DNA of 64,000 bases from Thermoplasmata archaeon (lineage in GTDB: Archaea; Thermoplasmatota; Thermoplasmata; Methanomassiliicoccales; Methanomethylophilaceae). The stretch is from positions 98,751 through 162,750 of the forward strand of contig SUSV01000003.1 of the NCBI GenBank assembly GCA_015063245.1. The letters run 5' to 3'. Of this stretch, positions 34,160-36,094 are shown one piece after another; positions within the stretch are counted from its first letter, which is position 1; every line of letters starts with the position of its first letter. The translations under genes were made by a program, and so were the position numbers. Below the pieces are notes generated by a model. That model was given only the letters and a program-made list of their open reading frames with translations, had not been told where the DNA came from and made no database searches.

Positions 34160-35587
<1,428 letters not shown>

Positions 35588-35614: not shown

Positions 35615-35813
35615 CACCCTTGTACAAATTATGAACGTACGAGGGTATTCTTATTATATACAAAGCGTCTAACAACGTCTGCGAATACGACCCGCTATGC
35701 GGGGAGGTGGATGGGAGGCTGGCTGATTGCGGTAACAACCCGACGGCCGGTTTGTACATTTACTGAAATCACTACCTTAACGTTTAAATACCATGTAAAA
35801 CTAATGACCTTTC

Positions 35814-35980
35814 AAGGATGTGCCTACTGGGTTAAGATGTCGATAGTAGGTGTGTCTAACCCTAACAAACGATTTCACCCGACGAGAAGGGATTCGAAGG
35901 CGGGTTCCCCTAATATCTATCCGGGTCTCGGAGAAATCCGAGGTCCGGATCCCCTAATTATTCAAGAACTCCTCTGATTG
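35814..35980 (+). ncRNA. Candidate structured ncRNA, family unknown
   Basis: TTTAAATA box at 35783-90; 13-bp GU-rich stem 35816-28/35845-57 begins at the expected TSS; CTCGGA-GAAA-TCCGAG hairpin 35927-42. Confidence 0.35.
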
Positions 35981-36094
35981 GGCATTGCCATCATCATCGC
36001 TGCCAAGCCGTCCTGTGCAACCCTTATATCTGTCGAACCGATTGTCAAGGTGCATACAGAGTATGCATTTCCTCTAGAAAGAGGGGGTGTGCAT

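What the first reader, a model, noticed from the sequence alone, without database searches (positions are those of the whole stretch)
35814..35980. Candidate structured ncRNA with mutually exclusive hairpins upstream of purH
TTTAAATA (35783-90) predicts a TSS at about 35814-16, exactly where a 13-bp stem begins (35816-28/35845-57, rich in G-U pairs, so plus-strand specific). Loop GGGTTA (35829-34) can instead pair with TAACCC (35857-62), giving an alternative fold. Further on are a GAAA-tetraloop hairpin (35921-48) and a repeated CCCCTAAT. I do not recognise SRP, RNase P, tRNA or riboswitch signatures. A conformational-switch RNA is inference.
Basis: partly seen in the sequence, partly recalled or inferred. 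Interest (0 to 1): 0.55.

Follow-up and report, generated by a model that had tools for sequence, protein, structure and literature searches.

The report
New structured small RNA beside purH
The stretch encodes a real, previously undescribed folded RNA found only in one genus of gut methanogens, always just upstream of the purine gene purH. The proposed two-state "switch" is not supported, and whether the RNA controls purH at all is still open.

Summary

**What it is.** It is a real plus-strand structured RNA. A covariance model finds one copy per genome in 39 of 62 species of one Methanomethylophilaceae genus, and none at E <= 0.01 in the 133 genomes of other genera sampled in the order, apart from one weak hit that is probably false.

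**Structure.**
- Two helices are kept by compensatory changes: P1 in 8 of 11 pairs and P3 in 9 of 9.
- The 16-nt P1 loop (core CAGAUG) and a linker (AAAC) are nearly invariant.
- Rfam 15 has no match.

**The switch idea.** The GGGUUA/UAACCC pairing shows almost no covariation and is lost in diverged members. It would give a pseudoknot, not a competing hairpin.

**GAAA hairpin and repeated CCCCUAAU.** These are a clade-specific tandem duplication of the P3 module.

**Relation to purH.**
- purH lies downstream on the same strand in every complete locus, 91-610 nt away.
- purH keeps its own BRE/TATA and leader hairpins, also in genera that lack the RNA.

**Best reading.** Most likely this is a stand-alone small RNA gene (about 0.5). 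A cis-acting purH leader or riboswitch remains possible (about 0.3). The scan had not found it on other DNA.

The parts
35777..35790 (+). BRE/TATA promoter of the RNA (TATA 35783-90)
   Evidence: A TTAAATA-type box with a purine-rich BRE is conserved at fixed spacing upstream of P1 in all homologues. The spacing matches the 5S rRNA promoters of the same genome.
35813..35816 (+). Predicted transcription start
   Evidence: Inferred from the TATA-to-start distance of about 23 nt from the end of the box. It coincides with the 5' edge of conservation and of the covariance-model match. There is no experimental data.
35817..35856 (+). P1 hairpin: stem 35817-28 / 35845-56 with a 16-nt nearly invariant apical loop 35829-44 (core CAGAUG; AAGAUG in this sub-clade)
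   Evidence: Of 11 pairs, 8 have changes on both sides and 96% of cells are paired. Many G-U pairs make it plus-strand specific.
35857..35876 (+). Conserved single-stranded linker J (contains AACCC, the possible pseudoknot partner of the loop, and the invariant AAAC)
   Evidence: Invariant columns in alignments A2, A3 and A6. The pairing with the loop is not supported by covariation.
35877..35905 (+). P3a: variable hairpin (the family's P3)
   Evidence: All 9 modelled pairs show changes on both sides across the genus. Every homologue folds into a stem of about 8-13 pairs here despite different sequences.
35906..35920 (+). C/U-rich tail copy 1 (CCCCUAAU at 35907-14)
   Evidence: Part of the duplicated module. 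CU-rich tails follow P3 in all clades.
35921..35948 (+). P3b: second copy of the hairpin module (GAAA-type loop), specific to this sub-clade
   Evidence: Module 35875-918 aligns to 35919-962 with score 8, against shuffles of -9.2 +/- 3.9 and a maximum of 6 in 2000. A relative (L054) has a single P3 that carries this same loop. Compensatory changes within the sub-clade are visible.
35949..35966 (+). Tail copy 2 (CCCCUAAU at 35951-58) and U-rich probable 3' end
   Evidence: The U-rich stretch is T4-T5 in several close relatives and only TTATT here. T4+ runs follow the RNA in roughly half of the species. Termination is inferred.
36018..36088 (+). Separate purH promoter and leader: BRE/TATA 36018-30, palindromic hairpin 36051-67, SD-masking hairpin 36071-84, SD 36081-87, GTG start 36089
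   Evidence: Conserved in all homologous loci, in genus members without the RNA, and as an architecture in other genera of the family.

Best explanation
The locus is a small, independently transcribed gene for a structured non-coding RNA.

**Size and layout.** The core is about 95 nt and the whole RNA about 150 nt in this genome, roughly 35814 to 35960.
- A strong archaeal BRE/TATA promoter starts transcription a few bases before P1.
- The RNA folds into two hairpins joined by a roughly 20-nt conserved linker. P1 is an 11-pair stem presenting a nearly invariant 16-nt loop. P3 is a variable stem, duplicated in this sub-clade.
- It ends in a C/U-rich, U-tract-containing tail.

**Shown here.** Homology, strand, the two helices, single copy per genome, restriction to one genus, and a constant position upstream of purH.

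**Inferred.**
- The transcript ends before the purH promoter.
- The invariant loop and linker are the working surface, binding a protein or an RNA partner. In that case the RNA acts as a trans-acting or locally acting regulatory sRNA rather than as a ligand-sensing leader.
- Its constant place next to purH would then mainly reflect birth inside an old, stable intergenic region between a methyltransferase gene and purH.
For: **Real RNA**
- P1 has 8 of 11 pairs and P3 has 9 of 9 pairs with compensatory changes; 0 of 500 shuffles reach the observed values, and slid controls collapse to 33-54% paired.
- G-U pairs fix the strand.
- The reading frame through it is broken by stops at codon 10 and by 1-nt indels in relatives.

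**Own transcription unit**
- BRE/TATA is conserved at fixed spacing.
- The tail is U-rich, with T4-5 runs or a small hairpin plus U-run in about half the species.
- An unconserved spacer of variable length (about 60 to over 400 nt) separates it from purH.
- purH has its own conserved BRE/TATA, upstream boxes and a hairpin at its start site. These are also present in genus members that lack the RNA (G024, G170) and in other genera whose short intergenic regions hold no such RNA.

**Distribution typical of a lineage-specific sRNA**
- One copy per genome.
- 39 of 62 genomes in the genus, 24 of 34 among high-quality ones, plus one diverged copy seen by eye.
- 0 of 133 genomes of other genera in the order, apart from one weak hit inside unrelated sequence.
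- Methyltransferase-purH adjacency also exists in other genera, so the neighbourhood is stable without the RNA.
Against: - There is no transcript evidence of any kind.
- About half of the species have no T4+ run between the RNA and the purH promoter, so read-through into purH is plausible.
- The RNA-to-purH order and orientation survive a change of upstream neighbour (gdhA in this sub-clade, a divergent SAM methyltransferase elsewhere) and insertions of up to about 440 nt. That would also fit a cis link.
- No convincing trans target was found. The longest complementarity to the loop, linker or tails elsewhere in the genome is 11-12 nt, which is chance level.
- No protein partner is indicated.
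Confidence: 0.5

Rival explanations
1. Cis-acting purH leader. The RNA is an aptamer-like or protein-binding domain. It controls how many transcripts from the strong upstream promoter pass the U-rich tail and read through into purH, as a riboswitch or attenuator sensing ZMP/ZTP, a purine, a folate or PRPP. Alternatively it modulates the downstream purH promoter by transcriptional interference.
For: - It lies upstream of purH on the same strand in every locus with enough sequence, 91-610 nt from the start codon, even where the upstream gene differs.
- Conserved loop and linker with variable, covarying stems is the pattern seen in aptamers.
- Terminator-like hairpin plus U-run follows the RNA in some clades, and weak or no U-runs in others, so read-through is plausible.
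- From my own knowledge, bacterial ZTP riboswitches commonly precede purH.
Against: - purH keeps a complete promoter and a start-site hairpin of its own between the RNA and the gene, including in genomes and genera without the RNA.
- The spacer is unconserved and of very different lengths.
- No alternative pairing links the RNA to the SD or to a terminator with covariation. The candidate pseudoknot and a candidate 5'-end/tail helix are weak.
- It occurs in one genus, before one gene, as one copy, whereas riboswitch classes usually serve several genes and wide taxa.
- There is no Rfam riboswitch match even at E <= 10.
Confidence: 0.3
2. It is a short protein-coding or leader-peptide gene: the ATG at 35837 opens a 46-codon frame that ends at 35977, within ORF 35711-35977.
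For: - An open frame exists in the window.
- The first 9 codons are alignable in relatives.
Against: - TAA or TAG stops occur at codon 10 in several homologues.
- Substitutions are mostly non-synonymous (1 of 7 changed codons synonymous in one comparison).
- There is no SD sequence.
- Variation follows base pairing, not codons.
Confidence: 0.03
3. It mimics the 3' minor domain of 16S rRNA (linker, helix 45 and anti-SD tail). As a mimic it would titrate SD sequences or 16S 3'-end maturation factors.
For: - Short shared words occur in the same order: CAGAUGG of helix 45, UAACAA, and a GGAUC..CCU-like tail. The tails are CU-rich and anti-SD-like in all clades.
Against: - Alignment of 12 family members to the 16S 3' end scores no better than shuffles (z from -0.9 to +0.6).
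- The helix 45 sequence is the same in genera that lack the RNA.
Confidence: 0.03
4. The conservation acts at the DNA level (transcription-factor sites or a promoter region) and the RNA structure is incidental.
For: The block includes a conserved promoter. In this sub-clade it also includes a conserved upstream box at 35751-72.
Against: Compensatory changes through G-U intermediates occur in two helices, and they work only on the plus-strand RNA. The pairs hold while the sequence changes.
Confidence: 0.04

Closest known systems
ZTP riboswitch (pfl motif, Rfam RF01750) and other purine/folate riboswitches of bacteria
   Same: A structured RNA sits directly upstream of purH on the same strand. 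It has conserved unpaired nucleotides, variable stems and a possible pseudoknot.
   Different: - No match to any Rfam model at E <= 10.
- The architecture differs: two simple hairpins and a linker.
- It is archaeal, confined to one genus, and precedes only one gene.
- It is separated from purH by a complete promoter.
- Ligand binding was not tested.
Lineage-restricted trans-acting archaeal sRNAs such as Methanosarcina mazei sRNA154 or sRNA41 (from my own knowledge, not checked here)
   Same: It is a small stand-alone gene with its own promoter. It has stable hairpins presenting conserved loops or C/U-rich anti-SD-like stretches, and it is restricted to a narrow taxon.
   Different: - There is no sequence relationship.
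- No target complementarity was found in the genome.
- No expression data exist.
Archaeal box C/D and H/ACA guide sRNAs
   Same: Similar size range, an archaeal promoter and hairpins. An ACA triplet follows P1 in most members.
   Different: - There are no C/D boxes, and the P1 loop has no GA/AG k-turn geometry.
- There is no pseudouridylation pocket.
- The ACA is replaced in diverged members.
- The only Rfam C/D hit nearby is noise on the other strand (E = 7).

Membership tests
Any Rfam 15 family (including ZTP, purine, THF, PRPP, preQ1, fluoride, SRP, RNase P, C/D and H/ACA) | Score at or near the family's covariance-model threshold | tested here: not met
   No hit at gathering score in the region. 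At E <= 10 there are only four noise hits, none overlapping 35814-35966 on the plus strand.
Housekeeping RNAs (SRP RNA, RNase P RNA, 5S rRNA) | It would have to be the genome's copy of that RNA | tested here: not met
   All three are found elsewhere in the genome above their cut-offs.
Riboswitch / cis-regulatory leader (generic) | Constant position upstream of the regulated gene, on the same strand | tested here: met
   purH lies downstream on the same strand in all loci that reach far enough, at 91-610 nt.
Riboswitch / cis-regulatory leader (generic) | Aptamer and coding region on one transcript, with an expression platform (terminator or SD-masking helix) that competes with aptamer pairing | tested here: inconclusive
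   A conserved purH promoter lies between them. U-runs follow the RNA in about half of the species. No covarying competing helix was found. Transcript ends cannot be tested here.
Riboswitch / cis-regulatory leader (generic) | Specific ligand binding | not testable with these tools
   Needs in-line probing or ITC.
Only 1 of its 5 pairs has any double change, and its 3' partner is lost in diverged clades.
Trans-acting archaeal sRNA | Own promoter and own 3' end | tested here: inconclusive
   The promoter is conserved. The U-rich tail is present in all members, but clear T4+ runs occur in only about half. There are no RNA data.
Trans-acting archaeal sRNA | Conserved complementarity to target mRNAs | tested here: not met
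   The best matches to the loop, linker and tails are 11-12 nt, which is chance level for 3 Mb of sequence. Pairing of the loop with the purH start region is not conserved in relatives.
Box C/D or H/ACA guide sRNA | C/D boxes with a k-turn, or a pocket hairpin followed by a conserved ACA | tested here: not met
   By inspection of alignment A6, no such boxes lie in conserved columns, and the ACA is not invariant.

The most novel reading that the evidence does not exclude
The element is an archaeal metabolite-sensing leader of a new class, for instance one responding to ZMP/ZTP, a purine or a formyl-folate. It would set read-through from a strong upstream promoter into purH. That would make it the first purine-pathway riboswitch in Archaea and an example of U-tract termination control by an RNA aptamer in an archaeon.
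Probability: 0.12. Interest if true: 0.8.

Novelty: new member of a known kind. Interest (0 to 1): 0.45.

Why it matters
Few structured RNA families are known from archaea, and almost none from the Methanomassiliicoccales. These are the methyl-reducing methanogens of human and ruminant guts.

This is a clean, covariation-supported new family with a defined promoter, two helices and an invariant 16-nt loop. It gives a concrete object for RNA-seq, pull-down or probing work in this group.

If it does control purH, it would bear on how archaea regulate purine synthesis. It would also test whether archaeal RNA polymerase termination at U-tracts can be gated by RNA structure.

Tried and rejected
- **Rfam.** Searched at gathering score and at E <= 10: nothing.
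- **Single-sequence folding.** Not significant on either strand.
- **Pseudoknot / alternative pairing** of the loop with AACCC. It is compatible in most members but lacks covariation and is lost in diverged clades. An all-against-all column scan recovered only P1 and P3.
- **Helix between the 5' end and the CU-rich tail.**
  - Native pairs are more complementary than permuted ones: mean -4.7 against -3.6 kcal/mol, permutation p about 0.0005.
  - The sequences are related, the helix is 4-6 bp at shifting positions, and it would compete with the base of P1.
  - It is kept only as a lead.
- **Small ORF.** Rejected because of stops and indels in relatives.
- **Trans targets by complementarity.** None above chance.
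- **Loop pairing with the purH start region (CAUCUG).** Not conserved in relatives.
- **16S 3'-domain mimic.** No better than shuffles, and helix 45 is identical in genera without the RNA.
- **PurP as a correlate of RNA presence.** PurP is universal in the genus, so this is uninformative.
- **Literature.** No paper on riboswitches or ncRNAs of this kind in these archaea.
- **Not done.**
  - The metagenome scan was not run, because the order-level survey already showed restriction to one genus.
  - Protein tools were not needed.

Full report
**Observation.**
- The region lies in the 500-nt gap between gdhA (34229-35587) and purH (GTG at 36089).
  - the TATA box at 35783-90;
  - a 13-bp stem, 35816-28 with 35845-57, with 5 G-U pairs;
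  - the loop hexamer 35829-34, exactly complementary to 35857-62;
  - the GAAA-loop hairpin at 35921-48;
  - CCCCTAAT at 35907 and 35951.
- Folding this sequence alone is not distinguishable from shuffles on either strand (z = -0.98 and +0.08). The case rests on comparison with relatives.

**Organism and relatives.**
- Record titles of exact-pattern matches place the element in Methanomethylophilaceae (Methanomassiliicoccales) genomes from ruminant and other guts.
- A first DNA search found a block of 80-87% identity, about 35746-35969, in same-genus genomes, each time upstream of purH.
- I built a covariance model (R1) and a broader one (R2).
- The own genome has one copy.
- In the genus, 36 (R1) to 39 (R2) of 62 genomes match, 24 of 34 among high-quality genomes.
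- Of three genomes R1 had missed (G159, G175, G176), R2 recovered G159 and G176. G159 and G175 were also seen by eye to carry diverged copies upstream of purH.
- Two genomes (G024, G170) have none upstream of purH, and one (G013) is doubtful.
- In a sample of 151 genomes of the order, no other genus had a match except one weak hit (E = 0.004) in unrelated sequence with no purH nearby.
- purH upstream regions of 20 genomes from seven other genera contain no such element.

**Structure.** On 38 distinct sequences aligned to the model (A6):
- P1 has 11 pairs, 8 with changes on both sides, and 96% of cells paired.
- P3 has 9 pairs, all with changes on both sides, and 90% of cells paired.
- No shuffle of 500 reaches any observed measure, and sliding the partners drops pairing to 33-54% (likewise).
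- Frequent G-U pairs make the structure specific to the plus strand.
- The 16-nt P1 loop is nearly invariant. Its core CAGAUG is kept even in the most diverged copies, though this sub-clade reads AAGAUG. The linker keeps AAAC and a U-rich stretch before P3.
- An all-pairs column scan found no further helix.

**The proposed switch.**
- The alternative pairing joins the first five or six loop bases to AACCC just 3' of P1.
- Only 1 of its 5 pairs shows any change on both sides (2 sequences).
- It is broken in 1 to 9 of 38 sequences depending on the pair.
- Its 3' partner is simply absent in several sub-clades that keep the loop.
- I therefore do not accept the switch model.
- A different candidate competition, the purine-rich 5' end pairing with the CU-rich tail after P3, scores better than permuted pairs. 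It is short, shifts in position, and the test ignores relatedness, so it is only a lead.

**The 3' half in this window.**
- The hairpin-plus-tail segment 35875-918 aligns with 35919-962 far better than shuffles do (score 8; null -9.2 +/- 3.9, maximum 6).
- A relative (L054) has a single P3 carrying the same GAAA-type loop and tail as the second copy.
- So the GAAA hairpin and the repeated CCCCUAAU are a tandem duplication of the P3 module in this sub-clade.
- Both copies keep pairing through compensatory changes among close relatives.

**Coding potential.**
- The frame from the ATG at 35837 is closed by TAA or TAG at codon 10 in several homologues.
- Its substitutions are mostly non-synonymous.
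- 1-nt indels occur in the loop.
- It is not a gene for a protein.

**Relation to purH.**
- purH follows on the same strand in every locus that extends far enough, 91-610 nt beyond the model's 3' end.
- The upstream neighbour differs between clades. It is gdhA in this sub-clade and elsewhere a divergently transcribed SAM-dependent methyltransferase of about 200 aa.
- Between the RNA and purH lies an unconserved spacer of very different lengths, followed by a conserved purH promoter region. That region holds:
  - BRE/TATA;
  - in most clades, two upstream boxes;
  - a hairpin or palindrome at the predicted start site;
  - an SD-masking hairpin.
- The same promoter and leader architecture is present in genus members without the RNA and in other genera. 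In some of those genera the methyltransferase and purH are direct neighbours.
- T4-T5 runs, in some clades preceded by a small hairpin, follow the RNA in roughly half of the species. The others have only T3-containing CU-rich tails.

**Interpretation.**
- That this is a functional structured RNA is secure (about 0.9).
- I favour an independent small RNA gene (0.5). My reasons:
  - it has a strongly conserved promoter of its own;
  - purH has a complete, older promoter of its own;
  - the spacer is free to vary;
  - the distribution, one genus and one copy, is that of a young lineage-specific sRNA born in a stable intergenic region.
- A cis role (0.3) is not excluded. Orientation and adjacency are invariant, terminators are weak in many species, and the gene is a classic riboswitch target in bacteria.
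- I found no trans target by complementarity and no support for the idea that it mimics the 16S 3' end.

**Comparison with known systems.**
- Nothing in Rfam 15 matches, and SRP RNA, RNase P RNA and 5S rRNA are elsewhere.
- No paper in the library describes it.
- It is a new family of a known general kind: an archaeal structured small RNA or leader.

Noticed in passing
window 36018-36088; loci L077-L102: The purH leader has a conserved architecture across several genera of the family: TATA, then a hairpin at the predicted start site whose sequence differs between genera, then a CCUC-N-GAGG hairpin that masks part of the SD. It looks like a regulated leader in its own right, acting as an operator or as a translational hairpin.
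   Followed up: partly
loci L031-L067 (e.g. L032, L033, L048), 20-70 nt upstream of the purH TATA: Two conserved boxes (TTTCGT-like and GGTATTCGTAG-like), about 20 nt apart, precede the purH promoter in most clades of the genus and in G024, which lacks the RNA. They are probably transcription-factor sites. The window's sub-clade lacks them.
   Followed up: no
L053 / L022 (G172), between the RNA and purH: About 440 nt of extra sequence is inserted between the RNA and the purH promoter, widening the gap to 610 nt. Its nature was not examined.
   Followed up: no
window 35681-35765: The neighbouring candidate RNA noted earlier (e1-5133436) is poorly conserved. Homology in most relatives starts only near 35746, and only G008 extends to about 35675. 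The conserved part (35751-72, containing TTTGTACA) looks like an upstream element of the RNA promoter rather than a separate RNA.
   Followed up: partly
G181 contigs C55 and C69: One genome bin holds two different variants of the RNA, each upstream of a purH copy. With 3% contamination, this is probably a mixed bin rather than a true duplication.
   Followed up: no
G000 whole genome: No 16S rRNA gene is assembled in the window's own genome (94% complete MAG). Two 5S genes are present.
   Followed up: yes
G058:C1:1316852-1317442: The open frame around purH in one relative from another genus contains one in-frame TAG. This could be an upstream extension, a sequencing error or pyrrolysine use.
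   Followed up: no
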